64,000 nt of DNA, taken from contig CAVZJB010000003.1 of assembly GCA_963775425.1 (NCBI GenBank), positions 206,983-270,982 of the forward strand. Direction: 5' to 3'. The position numbers and the translations under genes are program-made. The notes beneath the pieces were generated by a model. The model ran no database searches. It was not told the origin of the DNA and was given only the letters and a program-made list of their open reading frames with translations. Within the stretch, counting starts at the first letter, position 1; the number at the start of each line of letters is the position of its first letter. The DNA is from an uncultured delta proteobacterium. GTDB lineage: Bacteria > Myxococcota > UBA727 > VGSZ01. Positions 43,335-54,992 of the stretch are shown in pieces.

Positions 43335-43624
43335 TCCTGGGGCGCGCTGCGCGCGCCGGGGCCTCCGGCCCCCCCGCGCTTCGCGCGGGCCCCCCCGGGC
43401 TTGACCGTGCTTCCTTGCGGAGCCGCGCGCGGAGCTCGCGCTCGCGCGGCTTCGGGGCTCATTGCCGGATGACGCGGTCCCGAAGTCGCGGCGAACGCGG
43501 CCTCCGGAGCCGTCGCGTTCCGGCCTCACGCGCCCTCCACGACGGCTCCGACCGGCCGCCTTCGCCGCGTCCCCCAATTTTCGGGTCGCCCCGCGCCTGC
43601 GCCGCACGCCCGTGGCGCGCGCCG

Positions 43625-43900
43625 CGTCGGCGCGGGCTCTCCCCGGCGTAGGGCGCGGGCTTGCCCCGACGTAGGGCGCGGGCTTGCCCCGACGGAGGGC
43701 GCGCGCTTGCCCCGACGTAGGGCGCGGGCTTGCCCCGACGTAGGGCGCGGGCTTGCCCCGACGGAGGGCGCGGGCTTGCCCCGACGGAGGGCGCGGGCTT
43801 GCCCCGACGCAGGGCGCGGGCTTGCCCCGACGCAGGGCGCGGGCTTGCCCCGACGCAGGGCGCGGGCTTGCCCCGACGTAGGGCGCGGGCTTGTCCCGCG
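43625..43900. repeat. tandem array of ~12 x 23-bp REP-like units (GTAGGGCGCGGGCTTGCCCCGAC; variants GGAG/GCAG heads)
   Basis: Directly visible perfect 23-bp periodicity at 43648, 43671, 43694 ... 43878. Each unit carries the GGGC-TT-GCCC mini-palindrome. No spacers, so it is not CRISPR. Confidence 0.85.
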
Positions 43901-44031: not shown

Positions 44032-44466
44032 ATGTTGACGAACCGCTCGGCCCCGCCCGTGACCGTCACCCCGGTCCTCGTCTATCCCGATGTCCGCGCG
44101 GCGGTGACGTTTCTCGCCACGGCCTTCGGCTTCGAGGAGCGCGTGCGCATAGGCGACGCACACCGCGCGCAGTTGCGGGTGGGCGAGGACGGCGCCGTCG
44201 TCGTCGCCGACGTCGGCCGCGATCGCGTCGCCCCGAGCGCCGGCGTGGTCACGCACGTCCTCAAGGTCCGGGTTCCCGACGTCGACGCCGCCTTCGCTCG
44301 CGCCCGCGACGCCGGCGCGCGCGTCGTCGAGGATCTCACCACGCACGCGTACGGCGAACGCTCCGGCATGCTCGAAGACCCCGCCGGCCACCGCTGGGAG
44401 CTCACGCAATCCGTGCGCGACGTCGCGCCCGAGGAGTGGGGCGGCGTCGCCGTCGGTCGGTGGTGA
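44032..44466 (+). CDS. VOC family protein (glyoxalase/bleomycin-resistance/PhnB-like)
   Basis: MLTNRSAPPVTVTPVLVYPDVRAAVTFLATAFGFEERVRIGD...VTHVLKVRVPDVDAAFARARDAGARVVEDLTTHAYGERSGMLEDPAGHRWEL is the typical PhnB/VOC pattern. Confidence 0.75.
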   Translation: MLTNRSAPPVTVTPVLVYPDVRAAVTFLATAFGFEERVRIGDAHRAQLRVGEDGAVVVADVGRDRVAPSAGVVTHVLKVRVPDVDAAFARARDAGARVVEDLTTHAYGERSGMLEDPAGHRWELTQSVRDVAPEEWGGVAVGRW

Positions 44467-44514
44467 ACGGCTCCGGGGTGGCCTCGCCGCGGATGCGGCG
44501 ATACACCGCGTCCG

Positions 44515-44587
44515 GGCCCGTAGCTCAGCGGTAGAGCAGTCGGCTCATAACCGATCGTGTCGCAGGTTCGAATCCTGCCGGGCCCAC
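44515..44587 (+). tRNA. tRNA-Met (anticodon CAT; elongator-type, could alternatively be tRNA-Ile2/lysidine)
   Basis: Cloverleaf: acceptor GGGCCCG/CGGGCCC, D-arm GCTC-AGCGGTA-GAGC, anticodon stem GTCGG/CCGAT with loop CTCATAA, T-arm GCAGG-TTCGAAT-CCTGC, discriminator A. No initiator features (G1:C72; no 3xGC in the anticodon stem). Confidence 0.85.
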
Positions 44588-44688
44588 AGTTCAAGCGCTC
44601 CTCCGCCGCGCGGCCGCTCCGGATAGGCCCAAGCACCGTCGGCGCGGGTGCGGATCGTCGTGCAGGGCGGTTCGAATCCTGCCGGGCG
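44566..44688 (+). repeat. attL-type direct repeat: 104-bp unit beginning with the tRNA-Met 3' end (GGTTCGAATCCTGCCGGGCCCACAG...), 1 full plus 1 partial copy
   Basis: GGTTCGAATCCTGCCGGGC occurs at 44566 (inside the tRNA) and again at 44670. The same 104-bp unit recurs 4.5x at 54184-54650. Confidence 0.8.
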
Positions 44689-44689
44689 C

Positions 44690-46223
44690 GCCAATCGTTG
44701 CCCTTCGTCATTTCCGCGAGGATGGCGAAGGGCTTTTTCATGTCGTAACGCACGGTTACGCCCTCGAGGCGTGGGTTCGAAAGCACCATTTCGAGCAGTT
44801 GGCGCTTCTCCGAGGGAGTGCGCTGGTTCCACAACGATCTCGCCTGCTTGGCCAGTTCGAAAATGCGATCCGCGGTGACGAGGTACTTGTCGTCGAGCTC
44901 CTCGCTCGCGGCGCTGAGCCGGTCGAGCGCCGCGTGCTTCTCGCTGAGCAGAATCTCACGCTGGCGCTGGTACGTGACGTCGTCGAGCTTCCCGTCGACA
45001 TACATCGCCACGATCTTGTCCTCGCGGGCTTGCACGTCGTCCACCGTCCGCTTGAGGACGGCGATCTCGCGGCGGCGCTCGGTGCGCACGACCTCGTGGG
45101 TCTCGCGGAGCACGCGCGAGATCTCGTCGGCGAGCGCGTGCGGCAGCTCGATGTTGGCGATCGCGACCTCGAATTGCGCGAGGAGCTGCGCCTCCGTCAC
45201 GTGGACGCGCTTGGCGTGAACCCGGTGGCCGTTCGCGCACCGGTAGTAGTCGTACCGCTTGCCGCCGGTCTTGATCTTCGGGTCGTAGGTGATGCGGCAA
45301 CCGCACTCGGCGCAGACCAGGAAGCCGGAGAGGGCGCCGGCCGCGCCGAGGGGCGAGCCGTACGCGCCGCGGGTGAAGGTCGCCTGGAGCCGCTCCCACT
45401 CGTTGGTGGTGAACACAGGTTCGTGCTTCCCGCGGTAGCGCTCGTCGCGCCACGTGAACCAGCCCGCGTAGAACTCGTGCTTGAGGATCGCCTCGACGTC
45501 GCCCGCGCGGAGTACGCGGTTCTTGCGGCCGAGCCCCGCCCAGAGCCCTTCGTTCACGATGGACTTGCCGACGCTCTCGAGCGATGCGCCGGCTACGCGC
45601 AGCTCGTACATGCGGCGGATGAGGGCGCGCCCCGCGGGCAACAGCTCGATGGTGCCGCCACGGTCTCGCACGACCCCATTCGCGCCGACGAGCTTGGCGT
45701 TGCGGTAGCCGATGGGCGGGCGCGTCGGGTACCAGCCGTCCTTCGCCTTCGCGTCCTGCGACTCCTTGGCGCGGCGCGAGAGCTGCCGCGAATAGGTCTT
45801 CGCGACGAGCGTATTCATCTCGGCCTTGAGCCAGTCGCCTTCGTCGCTGCCCGCGTGAAGCTGCCAGCGCTCATGCGCGACGTGCAACACGAGCTCGTCG
45901 CGGCGGATGAGATCTTCGAGCAGCTCGTAGTCGGTGAAGTTGCGGGTGGTGCGGTCCCAGACCCAAAAGACGAGGTGCCGCACCTTCTCCTTCTTCGCGC
46001 GCGCGAGCGCCGCGTGAAACATGACGCGGGCCTCGGACGACTTCGCGCTCTCCTCGAGCACGATGACGTCCACGAGGTTGAGGCCGTGCGCCTTCGCGTG
46101 CGCGGTGATCCCCTCGCGCTGCACGCCGGGGCTGTTGTTGTCGCCCTGCTTCTTCGAGGACACCCGCACGACGCCGATCGCGCGGTCCGACTTTCCGAGC
46201 CACCGAGCAGCATTCACCTTCAT
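44690..46223 (-). CDS. large serine recombinase (resolvase catalytic domain + recombinase domain + zinc ribbon). 3' boundary unresolved.
   Basis: MKVNAARWLGKSDRAIGVVRVSSKKQGDNNSPGVQ (catalytic Ser region). Central recombinase domain. CAECGCRITYDPKIKTGGKRYDYYRCANGH (Zn ribbon). The coiled-coil C-terminus ends about ...KPFAILAEMTKGND. The ORF has no stop until 44082 and runs through the att repeat, the tRNA and the VOC gene, so the true 3' end is likely near 44690 or was replaced on integration. Confidence 0.7.
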
Positions 46224-47048
46224 GGTCCACCTCGCGGAGAAAGATCAGATCATGACGGAGAGCGGACGTCACCGGTCGCGCTCACCGTGGCGTCCTCCTG
46301 CGCCCACCGATCGAGCAACTCGAAGACGTTGGCGATCGTTTGGATGTCGGCGCGGGTGAACCGGACGGCGGCCTCCGGGTTCGCGGGCGAGAACATGCGC
46401 AGGTTCCCGCTCGACGTCTCTTCCAGCAGCATGAGCACCTCCAGCAGACACGTCGGCGATCGAGGCGAGCGCGCTCGCCGCATCCTTTCGTGTCGCCGTC
46501 GCCGTCGCCCTGCACTTCGCGGGCGGCGGTGACGGCATATCACCGTGTTGCTTGAGCCTGAGCCCCCTCCGCGCGCCGTGCGGCACCTCGTTCACGAGAT
46601 CGATGGATCAGCCAGCGACCTCCCGCCGCCCGTCGCGCAGCGACACGCGAAGCGTGCGGCGAGCGCTGACGAGATCGCCGTTGCGAACCTCGACAGCGCG
46701 GCCGGCCCGTCGCGCCTCAGCGCGACACGCGGAGCGTGCCGGCAGACGAAACCCCTTGTTGGGGGTGAGTCTGGAGGTCGCTGGCGCCACGTCAGTACGT
46801 GTCAAATGCTTTGGATTCGGCGGGGTAGCTCACCGGAAACTGTCACATGTACCTCCCCATTGTCCTGACACCAATTGACACGCATTGACGGGGCGCCGGC
46901 GGCCGGCGCGCCGGGCGGCGTCAAGATGGGAGCGCCTCGATGCCAAGATGCCACGTTTGGGACGCTGGCGTCCCGGCGTGGACAGTTGTTCGTTCGACGC
47001 ACGCCTGTCGTCTTGCGCTGAGGCCACGCGCTCGACACGATCACTTCG

Positions 47049-48195
47049 ATGCAACCGGGCCTCCTCTTCGATAAGTCCGCCTTTCAGGCGCTCAACGAGG
47101 ATGAGCATCGGTCGGTGCAAACGCTCTTCAAGGTCGGCCTCCCGCCAGTGCTAGCGAGCGAGGTCATCGCCGACCTTGCGAAGTACCCGCACGACAAGAA
47201 CGGGGAGGCGAAGGTCGCGACCCTCGCGGCCAAGTTTGGAGGTTCCGGACCGCCGCTCGTAGTCGGCCACGTTACCGCCACGCTGCGCTCGCTACTGGGC
47301 GCTGAGCCACCGCGGCGCGGCGACCTTTGGTACGCAACCCCTCGTCGCGCGGTGAATGCTGACGGAGAGCCGGGCATCGTGGTCGACACCGCGCCGATCA
47401 ATCACGCCATCTTTCGGTGGCGCGATGGCGAGTTCATCGACGCGGAACGGGACTACGCGCGCCGGTGGCGCGAAATGCTCGGTGAGCTGCAGTCGGGAAC
47501 GTTTTCGCCGCGTGCTGAAGTCGCAACACGTCGTCTTCCCCAAAGCGAAGAACGCAGTGGACGCACTTCGCATCGCCGACGCTGAACTCGTCGATCCCGC
47601 TCTGCAGCCCGCATGGCTCGAGTGGCTCTTGGATTCGCTCGCGCCCACGCCCCAGGTTGCAGGCGCTGTGCGCCAGCGATGGGACGTTGCAGATTTACCC
47701 CTTGTCGCGTTCGCTCCGTTCGCCGCGTTCTGTGTCCGCACGATGCTGTTCTTCGAGATCCTCACGCGCGGAAAGCACATCGTCGATCGCGAGACGAACC
47801 TGATCGACCTTCGCTATCTCTACTACCTACCCATGTGCCGCGTATTCGTCTCAGACGACAAGATGCACCGCGCGATGGCGCCTCTGCTCGCCCCAGGCGA
47901 TCGCTTCATCCCGTTGTCCGTGTTCCGCGCCGACTTGAAGGCCCTCGTCGAGGTTGGTGGCGGAGAGCACTTCCTCTTTCTCGGAGACGCGCTCGACGCA
48001 CTCAAGAAGCACCACGCGACGACGCCGACGTCGGTCATCGGGAAGATTGAGACATCGTGGGGTTGGGATCCGAACCGCGAACTCACGTCCTCAATGCCGC
48101 GGGAAGAGGTCCAAGCAATCCTTGAGAGGAAGTTCCCGCAACTTTTCAGCAAGAACCGGCGAGACGAGGGAGACAGTGACGAGCAATCGAGGTGA
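47049..48195 (+). pseudogene. hypothetical island protein, apparent -1 frameshift near 47510 (ORF 47049-47585 continues in the frame of ORF 47356-48195)
   Basis: Protein-like sequence switches frame at ...WREMLGELQSG / ERFRRVLKSQHVVFPKAKNAV...; the tails of each frame beyond the junction are junk-like. No recognisable domain. Confidence 0.4.
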
Positions 48196-48395
48196 GGGAG
48201 CCTGGCGCCGAACGGCGATGTCGCGTCACCGGTCACGAGTCACCTGGCGATGCTCATAGATTGCTTGCAAGACCGGCCGGCTAGCCGCCCTCAAGTACCG
48301 CAACGTTCGCGAGTCGGAGCGCCGCGGCTCCGGGCGTCGCGACCTTTTCGTGTGTCGCAACTTGCTCGCCTGGACTAGAAAGGCAGCGCAAGCCG

Positions 48396-49478
48396 ATGCC
48401 TTCGATCTTCGCCCGGGCAACCGTCAAGCGCGTCACTCCCGGCGCGCTCATGAACGAGGAGGACGTCAAGGTCCACCTCGTTATGCCGCGGTTACAGGAA
48501 TGCGGCTTCACGCAGGAAGAGCTGCACCTCGAGGCGACGTTCACGCTCCGCGCCGGCCGCTACACCTTGAATGTCGGCGGCAAGGGCGCTCCCCGCGCGC
48601 ACCACGTGCGGGCCGACATCCTCGTCCTGCGGGCGGGCAAGCCGCTCATGATCGTGGAGGTAAAAGCCGACCACGTCGATCTGTCGGCGGACGACGATCG
48701 GGACCAAGCGGTGTCCTATGCACGGCTTCATGATCCGATGTGCCCGGTCGCAGCGTTGACAAACGGCAAGCGGTGGCGGTTTTTTGACACGGTCTCAAAG
48801 AAGGAGATTTCCGCCGATGATGTGAAGGCGTCGACAGCACTGACCATCACGCTCGAGGACGAGCTTCGGAGGGAAGCCCTCATACAATTTGTCGGTTACT
48901 CGAAGGAGAACCTCGCGGCTTTCTGCGCCGAGCAGGTTCGTACCGCTGTCGCACCGTATCTCGCCGGTCTCGATGGCACGCTGCCGCTGTTTATTCCGTC
49001 GCTCTACGTCCTGCCCGGAGCGATGCGTGACGCCTGGGCGAAGTTTGTCGAGGGGTCACAGCGGGGGTTGCTCGTCAGCGGAGGGAACGGGTCTGGGAAG
49101 TCGGCATGGATGGTTCATGCGTCGACGTCGCTGACCGGTCAGGGAAGACCTTGTCTCTTCTACCGCGCGCATCTCTTGAGCGACGGATTCATCGCCCGCC
49201 TCGCTTCTGACCTCGCCTGGGCCTTGAGTCCGAACCTCTCGAGCGATGCCGCCGGTCGCCGCTTCGCGAACACCCTGAGGGGCGCGCAGCTTGTTGTCTT
49301 CATCGACAGCGCTGACGAGGCGAGCGAGGAGCTCACGAGAGCTGCGCTGAACGAGCTCGTCGAGAGATTTCCGGCTAACGTGCGCTTCGTCGTTGCGTGC
49401 AAGTCGACGCGGGTCGCGCCGCTCGGTCGCGACCCCGATGGATTAGACGCGGCGTGGTTCCAAAGCCTGGGAGATTGA
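48396..49478 (+). CDS. HsdR_N-type PD-(D/E)xK nuclease domain fused to a P-loop NTPase (Walker A/B)
   Basis: N-terminus EEDVKVHLVMPRLQECGFTQEELHLE...RADILVLRAGKPLMIVEVKADHVDL matches the type I restriction enzyme R-protein N-terminal (Mrr-like) nuclease fold (D...EVK). C-terminal VSGGNGSGKS (Walker A) and LVVFIDSADE (Walker B). Confidence 0.65.
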   Translation: MPSIFARATVKRVTPGALMNEEDVKVHLVMPRLQECGFTQEELHLEATFTLRAGRYTLNVGGKGAPRAHHVRADILVLRAGKPLMIVEVKADHVDLSADDDRDQAVSYARLHDPMCPVAALTNGKRWRFFDTVSKKEISADDVKASTALTITLEDELRREALIQFVGYSKENLAAFCAEQVRTAVAPYLAGLDGTLPLFIPSLYVLPGAMRDAWAKFVEGSQRGLLVSGGNGSGKSAWMVHASTSLTGQGRPCLFYRAHLLSDGFIARLASDLAWALSPNLSSDAAGRRFANTLRGAQLVVFIDSADEASEELTRAALNELVERFPANVRFVVACKSTRVAPLGRDPDGLDAAWFQSLGD

Positions 49479-49484
49479 GAAGGC

Positions 49485-51424
49485 GTGGACCCGAGCCTCC
49501 TCGACGAGACGGAGTTTTGGACGCTCGTGCAGCGGCACCAACGTCACTTCGGGGTGTTTCCGCTGTTCAGCGGCCGGCTCCGAGCCGAAGCACGACGGCA
49601 GCCGAGCCTTCTGCGCCTCATCTTCGAGGTCTCCGCACAGAGCCGCAATGACTTGGCCGCTCACAACTCCCGTGAGTTCTTCAAACGATACGTCGACAAG
49701 CGCTTCGAAAGGTTCCAGCACAGCGCCGACGCGCTGCGACGTCTGACGGACCTCGCCATGAAGATGTTCGACGAGAACACGGAGATGGTCGACGCCCAAG
49801 ATGCTATGAAGACAGTGGATGAACCGACTCTCCGACGTGCGGCGGACGTCGGGCTGGTCGAGCAAGTCCACGGCCAAGACGGGCGCCCACAGGTGCGCTT
49901 CCGCGAGTCGCGAGTGCGGAACTACCTCGTCATCTCAGAGGGCCATCGCTGGCTCTCGAAGACGGCGGATGTGCTTGAGACCGATGAGGTCCTTCTTAAG
50001 ATCACGGGCGGCGTGCAGCTTGAAGCGATGGAGCTTCTGTACCTGCTTGCGGACGAGGCGCAGAAGGTCGTCTTCGACGGGGATGCACGCAAGAACGCGC
50101 GCAAGGCTCTCTCGATCTTCGATGGCGCTGTTCGCGCCGTCTGTCCCGATCTCGGTGATCGTTTTGTCCCACCCCTCGGAAAGCGCGCGTTCGTGGGCTA
50201 CATCGACGTGCGGCGTGGGGCGCTTTTCGCGGTCGGCTTCATTCCGCGGGAAGGCGACGACGTGTTCTTCTGGCCGCGGACCCGCGGAATCTTTGAGGAC
50301 CGAACCGCGATGTTTCTCGGCGCGCGCAAGTTCTCGTCAAGGGCAGATGGCTTCCTCGATGAGGCAAAGGCTGCACATTTCGCGTTCTGGGAGACGTTCA
50401 AGGCAGAGCTGCACGGAAGTGGTCGAAAACGGCCGGCTCGACGAGTCAAAGTGTGCGCCCATGCTCTCGGAGCTCGCGACGGTGCTTGCGGCCGCGCTCG
50501 AGCTCGTTGAGCCCGCGCAGCGCGGTTTCCCGACCGTCGCAAAGACCGATATTGGCGCTATTCGCGTCGCTCTCTGGCGGAAGCGCGCGTATGAGAACTA
50601 CTTGGCCGAACACATGCCGCGGGACGAGACCCGCAGCGGCAGCTCTGTCGTCGTCACACGCCATCTGACGCCTGATGTTCACAGCGCGGCTCTAGCGCAC
50701 GCTGAATCGCTACCACTTGACTTCAGCGAGCTGCCCCCCGCTGAGGATCGGACGACCGCGACAGCGATGGAGGACGAGCTGCAGAGCGACGCTCGCTCAC
50801 CTTGAAGCGCTCGGCGAAACGAGCATCGAGAGCATCTTGCCGGCGTCGGATCAGAACGGTGCTCACATCTGGGAGCTTTGGAAGGAGCCGACGTTCAAAG
50901 CGGCCGCGGTACGGTTGACGCAGCTGCGCATTGAGTGCGTGGAGAATATCGTTCATGCGAGCTTCTCTCCCGACATCGCCAAGCGCATCCTCGGTGCCAC
51001 GACGACGGCCCTTTGCAGGCAGGACTATCGTGAAGGAACAGTTGAAGAGCTGCGTGTAACAACAAGCGCTGCGCTTCCCCGCGTAGTGGCGTTCGACGAG
51101 CGCCAAGAGGTCAAGCTGGCTCCCGACGGACGGACCGGAACCTTCCGGGGCGTGGAGATTCGCGACGTCGAATATTCATCAGCGACCTTTGCATTCGTTG
51201 CGAACGCGCGGAGCGCGTTTCTTCCGCAATCCTGGCGCTTCAAGCGTGAGCTCTGCCCGCTTCGAGCAGCGGTGTACCGCTTCATCGTCGACCGCTTGCC
51301 GTCCGCGCTCGCGCCGATCGGCAAGTCGCTTGGCGCTCCACCAACAAAGCGCTTGCGACTGACGTTGACGGGGCGACCGATTCCGCAGGATGTTGATGAT
51401 GCCGATGACGACGAAGAAACGTAG
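49485..51424 (+). pseudogene. large hypothetical island ORF, probably one ~640-aa gene broken by two frameshifts (segments 49485-50510, ~50461-50805, 50717-51424). May be the continuation of the upstream NTPase.
   Basis: GTG 49485 lies 6 nt after the upstream TGA. Protein-like text passes from frame 3 to frame 1 near 50430 (…FWETFKAEL / TEVVENGRLDES…) and to frame 2 near 50790 (…MEDELQS / ATLAHLEALGETS…). No recognisable domains. Confidence 0.35.
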
Positions 51425-52100
51425 CCGCGTTATCGAGGAAGTTCTGCTTCAGATCGCTGCATCGCGAGAAACCGAGGCGCCGGGGCCTCGCTCCTGCGTC
51501 CGTAGCCGCACTGCAACAGATTGCGGGGGAGGAGCGGGCCGGCTCAGTCCCCGTAGCCATCGCTTCCCGCCGGCTCAGTGCAGCAATCGCGTCATCTGTC
51601 TCGAGGTCCTCCTTCGAGAGATCAGATGTCGCCTTCGTGTTGGTGAGACGCGCCTTCAGGAACTTCACCAGATAGGTTTCGCCCGCGACCGCGTCGACTT
51701 TGGCGCGCTGGGCCACCTCAACGTTGCTGAAGTCCTGCTTTCCTTCGCGAAACAGCTCCATGACTGCGATGTAGACCCGCATGCCCTTGTTTGGCTGCTT
51801 CAGACCCTTCGAAGCCTTCGCGCGGTTGCACGCCATGCAAAGGACTTGCAGGTTCTCGAGGGCGTGGTTCTTGGCGTTCCCATCAACATGGTCAAAAGTG
51901 ATGCGTCGGTGCGAGCCGCACTTGCTACAGCGGAAGTCAGCATCGACAACGAGTTTCCAGAGTTCCTTTGTCGTCGGCGCGGACTTTCCGTAGGTTTCGC
52001 TCTTGAGCCAAGATCCCCGAACCGCGCCTGGCTGCGGAGGGCCGAACGCAGACAGTAGCGCCGCGAGCACGTCGTCTTCATTGAGCTCAAGCAGCTTCAT
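51282..52100 (-). CDS. HNH endonuclease
   Basis: CSKCGSHRRITFDHVDGNAKNHALENLQVLCMACN is the canonical HNH motif with a Zn-binding CxxC...CxxC. Start chosen at MKLLELNEDDV, because the upstream part of the ORF overlaps the rayT region. The 3' end overlaps the convergent ORF ending 51424. Confidence 0.7.
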   Translation of the reverse strand: MKLLELNEDDVLAALLSAFGPPQPGAVRGSWLKSETYGKSAPTTKELWKLVVDADFRCSKCGSHRRITFDHVDGNAKNHALENLQVLCMACNRAKASKGLKQPNKGMRVYIAVMELFREGKQDFSNVEVAQRAKVDAVAGETYLVKFLKARLTNTKATSDLSKEDLETDDAIAALSRREAMATGTEPARSSPAICCSAATDAGARPRRLGFSRCSDLKQNFLDNAATFLRRHRHHQHPAESVAPSTSVASALLVERQATCRSARARTASGRR

Positions 52101-52420
52101 GAATTCGAGTGACTCGTTCCACGGTGTCCTCGCTTTCTTCGGCCGCGACCGATGACGATGCTCTACGTTGGGTATCACGCAGGCGACGACGTCGCACTCA
52201 GCTCGCGACGGATCGCGGCACGCAGTTCGAAAAACCTCAAGCCGGGCGCGTTCGTGTTCTTCTGCGCGCGCAAAGCGCTTGGGGAGAAACGCCGTTTCTC
52301 CCCCGTCGCGGGCGGAGCCCGACGACGGCTCCCCCTCTTCCCCCGTCGCTGTGGCTCCTGCCTCCCTCCGGTCGGCCTCGTTCAGGGGCGGAGGCTCGTT
52401 CGAGCTTCGCCGTCGCGACC

Positions 52421-53078
52421 CTGGTCTGAGGGGGGCAGGCGTCCCGCCTGTCACGGGCGTCCCATGCGGATCAGGCGAGATCTCGCGCAAGAAGATCGAG
52501 CTCGGTCGGATGTTCATTGTGGACACAGACGCGCGCCGCCCAACCCTACATCGACGACGGCTCCCTCACTTCGTCCCGCCGCAGACCGAGCGCGGACAGA
52601 CTTACACTTCGTCACATGGCGCGTGCGCCGAGGCGTGGCACATCTCAGTCCTGACGAACGAGGCCGCGTCCGCGCGGCCATCAATCATTGCGATGCCATG
52701 CGCTACGAAGTCCACGCAGCCGTCGTCATGGACGATCACGTGCACGTGCTGTTGACGCTACTCGCTGACCACACGCTGAGCCGCGTGCTCCACACCTGGA
52801 AGTCGTTCACGGCGCACGAGCTTCAGAAGCTCGGCCGTCGCGGGAGCGTTTGGCAGGATGAGTCCTTCGACCGCACGATCTTCAGCGCGGCGGAGCCTCG
52901 AGCAGAAGGCAAGGTACATCGCGGCGAATCCGACGAAACGATGGCCCACCTTGTCCGGCTATCTGTGGGTGCAGTGTGTGGTCATGTTCACCAACGATCC
53001 GTGACAGGCGGGACGCCTGCCCCCCTCAGACGAACGATCAGTGACACGCGGGACGCGTGGCCCCCCTCAGACGAGAGC
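52421..53078 (+). mobile_element. REPtron-like unit: REP-associated tyrosine (Y1, IS200/IS605-like) transposase flanked by inverted hairpin repeats
   Basis: Left CTGGTCTGAGGGGGGCAGGCGTCCCGCCTGTCACGG (52421-52462) is the reverse complement of right CCGTGACAGGCGGGACGCCTGCCCCCCTCAGACG (52999-53036), with a second partial right copy at 53041-53078. Each contains the CAGGCG-TCC-CGCCTG hairpin. Confidence 0.6.
52464..53004 (+). pseudogene. rayT: REP-associated tyrosine transposase RayT (TnpA_REP), frameshifted near 52900
   Basis: DLHFVTWRV...HAAVVMDDHVHVLLT is the HuH motif. The conserved C-terminal ...ARYIAANPTKRWPTLSGYLW (YIxxNP motif) lies in the +1 frame ending at TGA 53002-53004. Confidence 0.55.
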
Positions 53079-53102
53079 TTCCGGCGTCATCAGGCGCAGC
53101 TC

Positions 53103-53280
53103 GGTTCGAAAATCCTCCATCCGGGCGCGCGTTTCGAGCCCATTCGCGACGTCGGCTACGTCGACGACCCGTAGGGCGGGGGCTCGTCCCCCGCCTTTTC
53201 CGTCGGCGGGCGCGCGTGGGGATACGGGGGACAAGCCCCCGCCCTACGCACCGCGGTTCGCAAATCGTCACACCGGGCGC
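53103..53280. repeat. 178-bp BIME-like repeat copy 1 (two inverted GTAG-headed REP hairpins GTAGGGCGGGGGCTCGTCCCCCGCC)
   Basis: Near-identical to 53992-54170. Begins with tRNA-T-loop-like GGTTCGAAAA. Contains GGCGGGGG-CTCGT-CCCCCGCC hairpins in inverted orientation. Confidence 0.75.
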
Positions 53281-53376
53281 GCTCTCCGATTTCGCCAACG
53301 ACGTCGAGGGCTTGGCCGACCCACGTGTCGACGCTTTCGAACTGAAGCCCGACGCGCAGCTTGCTAAGCTGATGGC

Positions 53377-53622
53377 GTGGCGAACGTAGAGCTTCTGAAG
53401 CGCATCAGCGTCGACCCTGCCGTCTGCGGTGGCCGGCCTTGTATCCGGGGGCACCGCATCTGGGTGTCGCTGGTGCTCGACTTCCTCGCCGACGGCGAGT
53501 CCGTCGACCAGATCGTCGCGAACTATCCCGGCATCGAGGCTGCGGACGTCCTCGCGTGCATCGCGTACGGCGCCGAGATGAGCCGGCTGCGCGAGGTCCC
53601 GCCGCGCCCCGCAGCAGGATGA
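53377..53622 (+). CDS. DUF433 domain protein (antitoxin-like)
   Basis: MANVELLKRISVDPAVCGGRPCIRGHRIWVSLVLDFLADGESVDQIVANYPGIEAADVLACIAYGAE is the DUF433 signature. ATGA overlap with the downstream DUF5615 gene. Confidence 0.75.
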   Translation: MANVELLKRISVDPAVCGGRPCIRGHRIWVSLVLDFLADGESVDQIVANYPGIEAADVLACIAYGAEMSRLREVPPRPAAG

Positions 53623-53984
53623 AGATCAAGCTCGACGAGAACCTCGGGCGACGTGGAGGGGCGGTCTTCCGCGTTGCGGGTCACGACGTCGACAGCGTCG
53701 TCGACGAAGGTCTCGCGAGCGCCGCCGACGATGCGGTGCGCGCGGCTGCGACGAGGGCGGAGCGCGTTCTCGTCACGCTCGACCTCGACTTCGCCAACCC
53801 GCTCCGGCATCCGCCGGCCGGGACGCCGGGGATCGCCGTGCTGCGGCTGCCGGAACCGCTTACGCCGTCCCTCATCGACGGCGCTGTCGTCGTGCTGCTC
53901 GGCGAGCTCGGCCGTGAACCGATCGATGGCCGACTCTGGATCGTCGAGGTGGATCGCATCCGCATCTACGATCCCGAGAGCTGA
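53619..53984 (+). CDS. DUF5615 (PIN-like) domain protein, putative toxin partner of DUF433
   Basis: MKIKLDENLG...VLVTLDLDFANPLRHPP...IAVLRLPEP is the DUF5615 pattern. A conserved two-gene DUF433/DUF5615 arrangement. Confidence 0.7.
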   Translation: MKIKLDENLGRRGGAVFRVAGHDVDSVVDEGLASAADDAVRAAATRAERVLVTLDLDFANPLRHPPAGTPGIAVLRLPEPLTPSLIDGAVVVLLGELGREPIDGRLWIVEVDRIRIYDPES

Positions 53985-53991
53985 AGGACAG

Positions 53992-54170
53992 CGGTTCGAA
54001 AAGCGTCAAGCCGGGCGCGCGTTTCGAGCCATTCGCGACGTCGGCTACGTCGACGACCCGTAGGGCGGGGGCTCGTCCCCCGCCTTTTCCGTCGGCGGGC
54101 GCGCGTGGGGATGCGGGGGACAAGCCCCCGCCCTACGCACCGCGGTTCGCAAATCGTCACACCGGGCGCA
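53992..54170. repeat. 178-bp BIME-like repeat copy 2
   Basis: Same sequence as 53103-53280 with a few substitutions (GGGGATGCGGGGGACAAGCCCCCGCCCTACG). Confidence 0.75.
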
Positions 54171-54183
54171 CAGCTCAAGCGGC

Positions 54184-54650
54184 GGTTCGAATCCTGCCGG
54201 GCCCACAGCTCAAGCGCTCCTCGGCCGCGCGCCCGCTCCGGATAGGCCCAAGCACCGTCGGCGCGGGTGCGGATCGTCGTGCAGGGCGGTTCGAATCCTG
54301 CCGGGCCCACAGTTCAAGCGCTCCTTCGCCGCGCGCCCGCTCCGGATAGGCCCAAGCACCGTCGGCGCGGGTGCGGATCGTCGTGCAGGGCGGTTCGAAT
54401 CCTGCCGGGCCCACAGTTCAAGCGCTCCTTCGCCGCGCGCCCGCTCCGGATAGGCCCAAGCACCGTCGGCGCGGGTGCGGATTGTCGTGCAGGGCGGTTC
54501 GAATCCTGCCGGGCCCACAGTTCAAGCGCTCCTTCGCCGCGCGCCCGCTCCGGATAGGCCCAAGCACCGTCGGCGCGGGTGCGGATTGTCGTGCAGGGCG
54601 GTTCGAATCCTGTCGGGCCCACAGTTCAAGCGCTCCTCCGCCGCACGCCA
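54184..54650 (+). repeat. attR-type tandem array: 4 full plus 1 partial copies of the 104-bp tRNA-3'-end-containing unit
   Basis: GGTTCGAATCCTG(C/T)CGGGCCCACAG recurs at 54184, 54288, 54392, 54496, 54600 (exact 104-bp spacing). The last copy diverges after ~50 bp. Confidence 0.85.
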
Positions 54651-54992
54651 CCGTCGGCGAATGCGTGGCACATCGCGGCCGATCGGTGTGGCGGCCGTCG
54701 CCTCGAAAAGGAGCCGCGGCGTCGGCGGCCGGTCGGAGCCGTCGGCTCTGACGACGGGGCCCGGCACGCGACGGCTCCGGAGGCCGTCGACGCCGCGACT
54801 CTGGTGCCGCGTCATCCGGCAACATGTTCCGCGTGACGCAAGCGCGAGCTCCGCGAGCGGGCCCACGAAGGCGAAACGCCGAAGGGGGGGACCCGCGCGA
54901 AGCGCGGGGGGGCCGGAGGCCCGGCTGTTCGCGCGCGTCAGCGCGCAAGAGAGCGGCTTGACCACGTGGACGTCGTGCGCCAAGAGGCCTTC

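What the first reader, a model, noticed from the sequence alone, without database searches (positions are those of the whole stretch)
53103..54175. DUF433/DUF5615 TA-like pair framed by two 178-bp BIME-like direct repeats that begin with a tRNA-T-loop-like sequence
Copies at 53103-53280 and 53992-54170 are ~97% identical. Each contains two inverted GTAG-headed REP hairpins (GTAGGGCGGGGGCTCGTCCCCCGCC and its inverse). Each starts with GGTTCGAAAA..CCGGGCGCG, which resembles the att/tRNA 3' end (GGTTCGAATCCTGCCGGGCCC). This looks like a mini-cassette, a TA module between degenerate att copies nested inside the larger island, consistent with serial accretion at the tRNA-Met hotspot. Alternatively the TA pair is being mobilised by REP/BIME-mediated recombination.
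Basis: seen in the sequence. Interest (0 to 1): 0.6.

Follow-up and report, generated by a model that had tools for sequence, protein, structure and literature searches.

The report
Toxin-antitoxin mini-cassette between serine-integrase att sites
The toxin-antitoxin gene pair is one small module in a row of mobile DNA modules stacked next to a tRNA-Met gene, and the "tRNA-like" sequence at each module boundary is the phage-type half of the attachment site of the island's large serine integrase.

Summary
Positions 53102-53280 and 53992-54169 are 96.6% identical. Each copy holds an inverted pair of GTAG-headed REPs, and together they frame an intact DUF433/DUF5615 pair.

The key feature is a 26-nt motif, "M" (GGTTCGnAAAnnnTCnnnCCGGGCGC). 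It occurs five times, all on the + strand. Each repeat both starts and ends with it.

M is the P arm of the attP of the island's large serine recombinase (LSR, 44690-46223, minus strand):
- The LSR gene runs across the att site.
- Integrated homologues end by reading a tRNA 3' end backwards.
- Phage-borne homologues end by reading M backwards.
- In three genomes attL is tRNA-like plus the LSR gene end, and attR is M plus host flank.
- GTTCGA-to-CCGGGC spacing is 6 nt in tRNA-type sites and 11 nt in M. This is the 5-bp shift known for serine-integrase attB versus attP.

The repeat is therefore a 152-bp module present twice. Its 99% identity starts and stops at the CCGGGC cores. The TA pair is a separate 0.74-kb module, found M-bounded with different neighbours in other Myxococcota-like contigs.

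This is a new variant of tandem-accretion arrays, and recombination activity is untested.

The parts
44514..44587 (+). tRNA-Met (CAT). Its 3' 22 nt, GGTTCGAATCCTGCCGGGCCCA, is the B-type (attB-like) sequence.
44565..44668 (+). First 104-bp unit (tRNA 3' 22 nt plus 82 nt). The same unit is repeated 4.5 times at 54181-54649.
44669..44700 (+). attL: B arm GGTTCGAATCCTGCCGGGC joined to GCGCCAATCGTTGCCC, which is the P' arm and the 3' end of the LSR gene. Homology to the 90%-identical LSR module of L066 stops at 44666.
44085..46223 (-). Large serine recombinase with Resolvase, Recombinase and Zn-ribbon domains. The conserved protein ends near 44690 (...GNDW-RAR). In the integrated state the open frame runs on through the att site and the tRNA to 44085.
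46224..52223 (.). Cargo of the LSR element, at lower G+C (61-69%). It includes an HSDR_N/AAA protein (48396-49478) and an HNH protein (minus strand, within 51282-52526). No M-like site lies inside it.
52224..52249 (+). M0: AGTTCGAAAAACCTCAAGCCGGGCGC, the P arm that closes the LSR element.
52250..52403 (+). Non-coding 'class C' module with a GGGGAGAAACGCCGTTTCTCCCC hairpin. It is 76-91% identical to modules in L001, L027 (two copies), L036, L044, L056 and L061. In other genomes it ends in a B-type site; here that site is degenerate (about 52396-52423).
52424..53074 (+). RAYT (IS200-like Y1 transposase) pseudogene with two frameshifts. It is flanked by perfect 33-nt inverted REPs (52424-52456 and 52999-53031, plus a second copy at 53041-53065) of a different REP type.
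53103..53128 (+). M1: GGTTCGAAAATCCTCCATCCGGGCGC.
53121..53280 (+). 152-bp 'class B' module, copy 1, measured core to core. Its cargo is an inverted REP pair (REPIN) at 53170-53248. It ends with M2.
53255..53280 (+). M2: GGTTCGCAAATCGTCACACCGGGCGC.
53281..53376 (+). 'Class A' leader of the TA module. It is conserved upstream of different TA cassettes in L003 (two copies), L004, L027, L036 and L056. Read on the minus strand it resembles the LSR C-terminus (...WRAR), so it is probably a relic P' arm.
   Evidence: the similarity to the LSR tail is my reading of the sequences
53377..53622 (+). DUF433 antitoxin-like gene (81 aa).
53619..53984 (+). DUF5615 PIN-like toxin-like gene (121 aa).
53993..54018 (+). 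M3: GGTTCGAAAAGCGTCAAGCCGGGCGC, the P arm that closes the TA module. Homology to TA modules of other genomes stops here.
54011..54169 (+). Class B module, copy 2, with the REPIN at 54059-54137. It ends with M4.
54144..54181 (+). attR: M4 (GGTTCGCAAATCGTCACACCGGGCGC) joined to ACAGCTCAAGCG, the sequence that follows the tRNA 3' end in the 104-bp unit.
54181..54649 (+). 4.5 tandem 104-bp units (98% identical). Each carries an intact B-type site, so this is an array of spare attB copies.

Best explanation
Positions 44.67-54.18 kb hold a tandem array of integrative modules inserted into a repeated copy of the tRNA-Met 3' end. A large serine recombinase (LSR) encoded at the tRNA-proximal end built the array, or at least delimits it.

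The LSR gene spans its own attP. The part of attP downstream of the gene (the P arm) is motif M. M resembles the tRNA T-arm/acceptor because the enzyme reads the same two sub-motifs, GGTTCGAA and CCGGGCGC, in phage and host sites. In attP they sit 5 bp further apart.

Order of the array:
- tRNA, then one 104-bp unit, then attL
- the 7.6-kb LSR element, closed by M0
- a non-coding class C module with a RAYT insertion, closed by M1
- a 152-bp REP-pair module, closed by M2
- a 0.74-kb DUF433/DUF5615 module, closed by M3
- the same 152-bp module again, closed by M4
- host flank, then spare attB copies

The '178-bp direct repeats' are thus two copies of one tiny non-autonomous module. The TA pair is another such module with no recombinase of its own. 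It most likely stabilises the array by post-segregational killing.

Shown here: the sequence anatomy, the identity of M as the attP arm, the modular boundaries, and purifying selection on the TA genes. Inferred: that the small modules were inserted or duplicated by LSR-mediated exchange at M, that they can still move, and that the TA pair is toxic and neutralising.
For: (1) Of 50 LSR homologues (25-94% identity), nearly all end '...W-R-A-R-x-D-S-N...', the reverse reading of a tRNA 3' end. Three end '...WRARVEDFWT', '...WRSRVDDFLT' and '...WRPHVEEFRT', the reverse reading of M. Two of these three lie on contigs with phage-type gene content (tail, wedge and lysis genes in L058/L059), and their DNA shows M-type sites at the gene end.
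(2) attL is tRNA-type arm plus LSR gene end, and attR is M plus host flank, in the window, in L006 and in L061. Other family members abut tRNA genes: a complete tRNA-Arg (L063), another complete tRNA sequence read by eye and not checked with ARAGORN (L062), and a tRNA 3' fragment (L065).
(3) GTTCGA-to-CCGGGCG spacers are 6 nt in 10 sites and 11 nt in 31 sites, with 7 and 8 nt absent and 9-10 nt seen only 3 times. About 0.3 per length is expected by chance. Rutherford et al. 2013 (PMC3783163) describe a 5-bp inward shift of the zinc-ribbon-domain motif in attB relative to attP. The RD-ZD region of this LSR matches that A118 integrase (4KIS, E=2e-6).
(4) The 99% identity of the two copies begins and ends at the CCGGGC cores.
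(5) TA modules with 76-87% protein identity (76-79% at the DNA level) occur in L001, L002, L003, L004, L034, L036 and L056. M follows the TA genes directly in L001, L034, L036 and L056. In L002 and L003 one extra ORF lies between, and L004 ends too early to tell. Homology to the window ends at M, and the neighbours differ: class C in L001, L036 and L056, class B in the window and L034, another TA in L003.
(6) M or B-type arrays start directly after tRNA-Arg in L009 and L027.
(7) An LSR module 90% identical in DNA sits in a different site in L066, and homology breaks exactly at attL.
(8) TA dN/dS is 0.09-0.28 at dS 0.65-1.0.
Against: Serine integrases are normally strictly directional (attP x attB only; PMC3783163). 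The internal junctions (P arm plus relic P' arm) imply exchange between non-canonical partners, or else deletion or homologous events.

A 152-bp double-stranded circle is an unlikely integration substrate. The second copy may therefore have arisen by unequal crossing-over, or by re-insertion of an 889-bp circle (module B plus TA).

The intact attB copies read CCGGGC-CC-ACAG where attL and attR read CCGGGC-GC. The exact crossover dinucleotide is therefore unresolved.

I could not find convincing symmetry in the right half-sites. No excision product, recombination directionality factor or activity was observed. The source genome outside the 64-kb window was not available.
Confidence: 0.75

Rival explanations
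1. REP/BIME (RAYT)-driven rearrangement. The GTAG REP pairs are the active elements, and recombination or transposition between them duplicated the flank and mobilises the TA pair.
For: Genuine inverted REP pairs lie in both copies. A RAYT-type Y1 transposase gene lies 100 bp upstream. A related REP-like 23-bp tandem array lies at 43629-43898.
Against: The RAYT has two frameshifts and is flanked by a different REP sequence. The identity breakpoints of the repeat lie at the M cores, 40-50 nt outside the REPs. TA modules in seven other contigs have M or B-type sites but no such REPs. Class B modules elsewhere carry unrelated hairpins.
Confidence: 0.05
2. Plain segmental duplication by homologous or unequal recombination within an old, now immobile scar array. 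On this view the M sites are only relics of past integrations, and the LSR plays no part in the present B-TA-B arrangement.
For: The copies are 99% identical over 160 nt and 889 bp apart, which fits a recent tandem duplication followed by loss. Canonical LSR directionality argues against P x P exchanges (PMC3783163). The neighbouring 104-bp array shows that tandem duplication occurs at this locus.
Against: The breakpoints coincide to the nucleotide with the presumed crossover core. The same modules are found in other orders and with other neighbours in unrelated contigs, always cut at M. M is conserved although the adjacent TA genes have dS of about 0.65-1.0. Homologous exchange between 26-nt M sites would give the same breakpoints, so this rival is not excluded for the last step.
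Confidence: 0.15
3. An integron-like cassette array served by a tyrosine integrase, with M as part of an attC site.
For: The array consists of small, mostly promoter-proximal cassettes rich in TA pairs, separated by a conserved site in one orientation.
Against: None of the 10 largest ORFs between 44.1 and 52.5 kb that were scanned against Pfam is a tyrosine recombinase. No R''/R' core-site pair (RYYYAAC...GTTRRRY) occurs in 51.5-54.7 kb on either strand. The sites do not fold better than shuffled sequence, with z from +0.4 to +1.3. M is explained by the LSR.
Confidence: 0.03

Closest known systems
Dehalococcoides ssrA genomic islands (McMurdie et al. 2011, PMC3146451)
   Same: A CcrB-like large serine recombinase lies on the reverse strand next to attL. 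Insertion is in the T-loop region of a tRNA-like gene end. Several islands stand in tandem, separated by repeats of the gene's 3' end. Recombinase-less members are interpreted as cis-mobilizable elements.
   Different: The target here is a true tRNA gene (Met; Arg in relatives), not tmRNA. The repeated boundary is the attP-type arm with a 5-bp insertion rather than a plain 20-bp direct repeat. Modules can be as small as 152 bp or non-coding. No second small serine recombinase was seen.
SCCmec / SCC composite islands (CcrAB large serine recombinases). Compared from my own knowledge and from the summary in PMC3146451.
   Same: Serine recombinase elements and recombinase-less 'pseudo-SCC' cassettes are stacked in tandem at one chromosomal site, separated by repeated integration-site sequences.
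   Different: SCC elements integrate in the 3' end of rlmH (orfX), are far larger (tens of kb, from my own knowledge) and use two recombinases. There is no tRNA mimicry.
CIMEs and accretion of ICESt1/ICESt3-type elements (Pavlovic et al. 2004, cited in PMC3146451; review PMC5704250, retrieved but not read)
   Same: Non-autonomous modules flanked by att sites of a resident integrative element accumulate by site-specific accretion.
   Different: Those systems use tyrosine integrases with identical direct-repeat cores. Here the recombinase is a serine integrase with hybrid sites.
A118/LI serine integrase att-site architecture (Rutherford et al. 2013, PMC3783163)
   Same: The zinc-ribbon-domain motif lies 5 bp closer to the crossover in attB than in attP. 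This is seen here as 6-nt versus 11-nt spacers. The RD-ZD region is detectably similar.
   Different: The similarity is only distant. The target is a tRNA gene. The integrase ORF crosses attP, so its C-terminal tail changes on integration. Phage Mx8 IntP, a tyrosine integrase, also extends across attP (PMC4383910).
PIN-COG2442 (DUF433) predicted type II toxin-antitoxin pairs (Makarova et al. 2009, PMC2701414)
   Same: A DUF433 three-helix DNA-binding protein lies upstream of a PIN-like nuclease as a two-gene module.
   Different: The toxin here belongs to the DUF5615 PIN-like family. Neither protein of this pair has been tested.
REPINs / BIMEs with RAYT transposases
   Same: The module contains an inverted pair of GTAG-headed REPs forming a long hairpin.
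   Different: Here the REP pair is passenger DNA inside an att-bounded module. It is not the agent of the duplication.

Membership tests
Large serine recombinase integrative element | Recombinase with Resolvase catalytic domain, Recombinase domain and zinc-ribbon domain | tested here: met
   PF00239, PF07508 and PF13408 all score above their cut-offs. Residues 247-336 match the A118 integrase structures 4KIS and 6DNW.
Large serine recombinase integrative element | Hybrid attL/attR made of one host arm and one element arm around a short shared core | tested here: met
   In the window, attL is tRNA-type arm plus LSR gene end, and attR is M plus tRNA-downstream sequence. L006 and L061 have the same design.
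Large serine recombinase integrative element | Outer (zinc-ribbon-domain) motif 5 bp further from the crossover in attP than in attB | tested here: met
   Spacers are 11 nt (31 sites) against 6 nt (10 sites), with 7 and 8 nt absent. The rule comes from PMC3783163. The P-type count is inflated because loci were fetched with an M pattern; the B-type sites were not selected that way.
Large serine recombinase integrative element | attP form present in free (phage or circular) genomes | tested here: met
   P0167 (12 contigs, with tail, wedge and endolysin genes) and P0165 carry M-type sites at the end of the integrase gene.
Large serine recombinase integrative element | Demonstrated recombination between the sites | not testable with these tools
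   This needs an in vivo or in vitro assay.
Cis-mobilizable / accreted module array | Recombinase-less modules bounded by att sites of a co-resident element, all in one orientation, next to the target gene | tested here: met
   Five M sites on the + strand between the LSR element and attR. Module homology breaks at M.
Cis-mobilizable / accreted module array | Independent presence or absence of modules in different genomes | tested here: met
   The TA module has different neighbours in L001, L003, L034 and L036. The class C module is present in seven loci. The LSR module sits at another site in L066.
Type II toxin-antitoxin (DUF433 / PIN-like DUF5615) | Domain membership and two-gene overlapping operon with the antitoxin first | tested here: met
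   PF04255 at 86 bits and PF18480 at 62 bits, with an ATGA overlap. The pairing is conserved in L001-L004, L034 and L036.
Type II toxin-antitoxin (DUF433 / PIN-like DUF5615) | Both genes under purifying selection | tested here: met
   dN/dS is 0.09-0.28 in five pairwise comparisons.
Type II toxin-antitoxin (DUF433 / PIN-like DUF5615) | Toxicity of the toxin and neutralisation by the antitoxin | not testable with these tools
   No experimental report for this pair turned up: no paper in the library mentions DUF5615.
REP / REPIN / BIME | Short GTAG-headed imperfect palindromes in inverted pairs | tested here: met
REP / REPIN / BIME | Many dispersed intergenic copies in the genome and a cognate intact RAYT | tested here: inconclusive
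   Only 64 kb of the genome is available. A related 23-bp array lies at 43629-43898. The adjacent RAYT is a pseudogene with a different REP.
Integron cassette / attC | R''/R' core sites, a stable attC hairpin and an IntI integrase | tested here: not met
   No core-site pairs. Folds are no better than shuffles. No tyrosine recombinase among the 10 island ORFs scanned.

The most novel reading that the evidence does not exclude
These arrays may be a working, integron-like cassette platform run by a large serine recombinase rather than a tyrosine IntI. On this reading, small modules (TA pairs, hairpin-only units, attB-bearing 'class C' landing pads) each carry one attP-type site. They are captured, duplicated and shuffled at tRNA 3' ends across Myxococcota-like bacteria, with phage-borne relatives of the same enzyme. 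This would also establish a serine-integrase lineage specialised on tRNA genes, which a 2015 survey said was unknown (PMC4383910).
Probability: 0.25. Interest if true: 0.8.

Novelty: new variant of a known kind. Interest (0 to 1): 0.5.

Why it matters
The work turns an odd repeat into a readable system. It defines the attP and attB arms of an uncharacterised serine-integrase family that targets the 3' ends of tRNA-Met and tRNA-Arg genes, and it gives a natural illustration of the 5-bp attP/attB rule.

It also shows that toxin-antitoxin pairs, and even 152-bp non-coding units, can exist as att-bounded modules stacked behind a tRNA gene.

If the small modules are still mobile, this would be a serine-recombinase counterpart of integron cassettes or SCC arrays in soil and groundwater Myxococcota. 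It could also supply new, compact, tRNA-directed integrase/att pairs for genome engineering. If they are not mobile, this is a well-resolved example of island decay and accretion.

Tried and rejected
- **Source contig look-ups.** Exact-sequence look-ups for the DUF5615 protein, its 100% match P0001 and glyA returned nothing. The rest of the source genome could not be read, and REP and M copy numbers genome-wide remain unknown.
- **Collection scans with M.** The genome and metagenome scans gave few true hits: about 9 of 37 stretches and about 9 of 16. This is enough for comparison but not for statistics on array length.
- **attC-like hairpins.** Folding M-containing sites as attC-like hairpins gave no excess stability, so that idea was rejected.
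- **Integron core sites.** None found.
- **Rfam.** No family matched in 52.0-54.8 kb, even at E<=1.
- **Promoters and terminators.** The sigma-70 and terminator scan found nothing. This is uninformative for this phylum.
- **Plasmids and deposited phages.** No similar DNA in the plasmid collection. Only 22-28% identical serine integrases in deposited phages.
- **IMG/VR scan.** It added one distant integrated relative.
- **Right half-sites and crossover.** I tried to find dyad symmetry and to fix the crossover dinucleotide by eye. The results were inconsistent. The centre could be GG, GC or CG within CCGGGCGC, so I make no claim.
- **M as coding sequence only.** I considered that M might be conserved only as coding sequence (the LSR tail). 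I set this aside because M is conserved at module ends that have no LSR gene.
- **Defence-system scan of the cargo.** It gave only weak partial hits.
Full report
**1. The observation**

The two copies exist as described. Positions 53102-53280 and 53992-54169 align over 179 nt at 96.6% identity (alignment). Each contains two GTAG-headed REPs in inverted orientation, with arms of 24-25 nt, 96% complementary and 29-31 nt apart.

Between the copies lie two intact ORFs that overlap by ATGA. They are DUF433 (53377-53622, E=1e-24) and DUF5615 (53619-53984, E=6e-17). Five pairwise comparisons with homologues give dN/dS of 0.09-0.28 at dS of 0.65-1.0, so both are functional genes.

DUF433 (COG2442) next to a PIN-type nuclease is a predicted type II toxin-antitoxin pair (PMC2701414). 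The only solved relative is the DUF433 protein 2GA1.

**2. The surroundings**

- A tRNA-Met gene lies at 44514-44587.
- Its last 22 nt plus the next 82 nt form a 104-bp unit. The unit occurs once after the tRNA, begins a second time at 44669, and is interrupted there. A further 4.5 copies follow at 54181-54649.
- The interrupting DNA (44.69-54.17 kb) has 61-69% G+C, against about 73% outside.
- It starts with a large serine recombinase (LSR) on the minus strand, with Resolvase, Recombinase and zinc-ribbon domains.
- The LSR reading frame runs out of the island, through the att junction and the tRNA.
- Just upstream of the finding lies an IS200-like Y1 (RAYT) transposase gene with two frameshifts. 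It is flanked by perfect 33-nt inverted REPs of another sequence type.

**3. The motif**

The T-loop-like start of the repeat belongs to a 26-nt motif that I call M: GGTTCGnAAAnnnTCnnnCCGGGCGC. It occurs five times, all on the + strand, at 52224, 53103, 53255, 53993 and 54144. Chance expectation is 0.1. A profile search finds no further copy in the window apart from the attL hybrid.

Each '178-bp repeat' therefore starts with one M and ends with another. The alignment shows only 2 differences in the 160 nt from the CCGGGC of the first M to the CCGGGCGC of the second. There are 4 differences in the 18 nt before that core, and no similarity further left. The repeated entity is a 152/151-bp unit cut at the M cores.

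**4. M in other genomes**

Homologues of the toxin with 76-82% identity exist only in metagenomes and MAGs. The contigs fetched for three of them carry the same TA pair with the same motif nearby. L003 has the order M, TA plus one ORF, M, another TA-like cassette, M.

Scans of representative genomes and of metagenomes with M returned few but clear true hits, in Myxococcota-like, Bdellovibrionota and one Pseudomonadota MAG.

The sequence to the right of M falls into recurring classes:
- **Class A** is a roughly 95-nt leader before TA cassettes.
- **Class B** starts GCGCGTTTCGAAC and is followed by a hairpin. The window's REP-pair unit belongs here.
- **Class C** is a roughly 150-nt non-coding unit. 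Window 52250-52403 is 76-91% identical to copies in seven loci.

BLAST blocks between the window and these loci begin and end at M. Neighbouring modules differ between genomes.

In L009 and L027 the arrays start directly after a tRNA-Arg gene. Cassette cargo elsewhere includes a PIN-domain protein with a small upstream ORF (a likely VapBC pair) and another addiction-module pair.

**5. What M is**

The LSR has 50 homologues at 25-94% identity. Their C-termini sort them into two groups.

- Almost all end '...W-R-A-R-x-D-S-N...', which is a tRNA 3' end read on the opposite strand. This is the integrated form.
- Three end '...WRARVEDFWT', '...WRSRVDDFLT' and '...WRPHVEEFRT'. This is M read on the opposite strand. 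The corresponding window readings are RARMEDFRT, RARLDAFRT, RARCDDLRT and RARLEVFRT.

Two of these three lie on contigs with phage-type gene content. L058/L059 (31-52 kb) carry tail, wedge and lysis genes; L060 is a 39-kb contig with less telling content. Their DNA shows M-type sites at the end of the integrase gene.

In the window, L006 and L061, the junction next to the LSR gene is a tRNA-type arm plus the gene end. The far junction is M plus host flank. Other relatives overlap a complete tRNA-Arg (L063), abut another complete tRNA sequence read by eye (L062), or abut a tRNA fragment (L065).

An LSR module 90% identical in DNA sits in a different site in L066, and homology stops exactly at 44666.

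M is therefore the P arm of attP, and the integrase gene spans attP.

**6. Why M looks like a tRNA end**

The sub-motifs GTTCGA and CCGGGCG are 6 nt apart in tRNA-type sites (10 cases) and 11 nt apart in M (31 cases). Spacers of 7 and 8 nt are absent, and 9-10 nt occur only 3 times. About 0.3 per length is expected by chance.

For serine integrases, the motif bound by the zinc-ribbon domain lies 5 bp closer to the crossover in attB than in attP (Rutherford et al. 2013, PMC3783163). The RD-ZD region of this LSR is detectably similar to that A118 integrase.

**7. Model**

The array reads as follows:
- tRNA-Met, then one attB unit, then attL
- the LSR element (7.6 kb), closed by M0
- the class C module with the RAYT insertion, closed by M1
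- the 152-bp REP-pair module, closed by M2
- the TA module (class A leader, DUF433, DUF5615), closed by M3
- the 152-bp module again, closed by M4
- host flank, then 4.5 spare attB units

The class A leader, read on the minus strand, resembles the end of the LSR protein (...WRAR). It is probably a relic P' arm, so the TA module keeps both attP arms but has no recombinase.

I infer that modules were added or duplicated by exchange at M, and that the TA pair stabilises the array. Neither point is shown.

Several facts count against a simple version of the model:
- Serine integrases are normally restricted to attP x attB.
- A 152-bp circle is a poor substrate.
- The intact attB copies read CC where attL and attR read GC, so the crossover dinucleotide is unresolved.
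- Homologous exchange between M sites would leave the same breakpoints.

**8. Rivals**

- REP/RAYT-driven mobilisation fails on the breakpoints, on the pseudogene, and on the absence of REPs around TA modules elsewhere.
- An integron reading fails on core sites, hairpin stability and integrase type.
- A purely homologous duplication in a fossil array remains possible for the last step.

**9. Comparison with known systems**

The closest described systems are the Dehalococcoides ssrA islands. They have a CcrB-like serine recombinase next to attL, tandem islands, and recombinase-less members seen as cis-mobilizable elements (PMC3146451). SCC composite islands and accretion of CIMEs with ICESt1-type elements are also close.

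This case differs in four respects:
- the target is a true tRNA gene;
- the boundary site is a 5-bp-expanded tRNA mimic;
- the integrase ORF spans attP, as known for the tyrosine integrase of phage Mx8 (PMC4383910);
- the modules are very small and recur across genomes.

[quoted passage not shown] I did not find a later description of this family, but the search was limited.

**10. Verdict**

This is a new variant of a known kind of system, of moderate interest. It would become more interesting if the small modules prove to be mobile.

Noticed in passing
window 54181-54649 and 44565-44668; also L006 and L009: Tandem arrays of the att-bearing unit recur near this LSR family's sites in three unrelated genomes. 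The units are 104 bp (5.5 copies in the window), about 86 bp (3 copies in L006) and about 90 bp (3 copies in L009, where the later units carry M-type rather than tRNA-type arms). How these arrays arise is unexplained. After M4 the host flank is cut after 12 nt (ACAGCTCAAGCG) and a new unit starts.
   Followed up: partly
window 43486-43590 and 54700-54810: An inverted repeat of about 100 nt (84% identity) brackets the whole block: REP-like array, small ORF, tRNA-Met, island and attB array. Its meaning is unknown.
   Followed up: partly
window 43629-43898: There are 11.7 tandem copies of a 23-bp unit, GGCGCGGGCTTGCCCCGACGTAG (95% matches). The unit is related to the GTAG REP inside the 152-bp module but lies outside the island, upstream of the tRNA.
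   Followed up: no
window 52250-52403; L001 781-940; L027 (two copies); L036; L044; L056; L061 11552-11695: The non-coding 'class C' unit is conserved (76-91%) across seven loci. It contains a GGGGAGAAAC.CCGTTTCTCCCC hairpin and a GGCTCCTGCCTC(G/C)CTCCG stretch. In L027, L044 and L061 it ends in a tRNA-type (B-type) site. In L061 an LSR element has inserted into that site, so the unit may act as a portable landing pad. It has no Rfam match.
   Followed up: partly
window 52424-53074: A RAYT (IS200-like Y1 transposase) pseudogene with two frameshifts lies between perfect 33-nt inverted REPs (GTCTGAGGGGGGCAGGCGTCCCGCCTGTCACGG). A second, 88% complementary REP copy lies at 53041-53065.
   Followed up: partly
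window 44085-44690 (minus strand): In the integrated state the LSR frame stays open for about 200 extra codons, through the tRNA-Met gene and antisense to the upstream ORF, giving 713 aa against 511-573 aa in homologues. Integration therefore replaces the attP-encoded tail. Whether this changes the enzyme's stability or activity is unknown.
   Followed up: no
window 53129-53160; L027, L043, L045, L046, L053: Class B modules begin with a second, weaker M-like sequence directly after M, for example GTTTCGAACTTCGTCGTGCCGGGCG in L027. This makes two P-type arms 28 nt apart. In other genomes this is followed by unrelated strong hairpins rather than the GTAG REP pair.
   Followed up: no
window 48396-49478 and 51282-52526 (minus strand): The LSR element's cargo includes a protein with a type I restriction-enzyme N-terminal nuclease-like domain plus an AAA/STAND-like NTPase, and an HNH protein with weak similarity to ZorE. 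This may be a defence-type cargo, but no PADLOC system was recognised.
   Followed up: partly
L058/L059 13535-13780 and L060 5621-5899: The contigs that carry the attP-form integrase also encode Acb2/Tad1-hairpin-like proteins, which are an anti-defence family.
   Followed up: no
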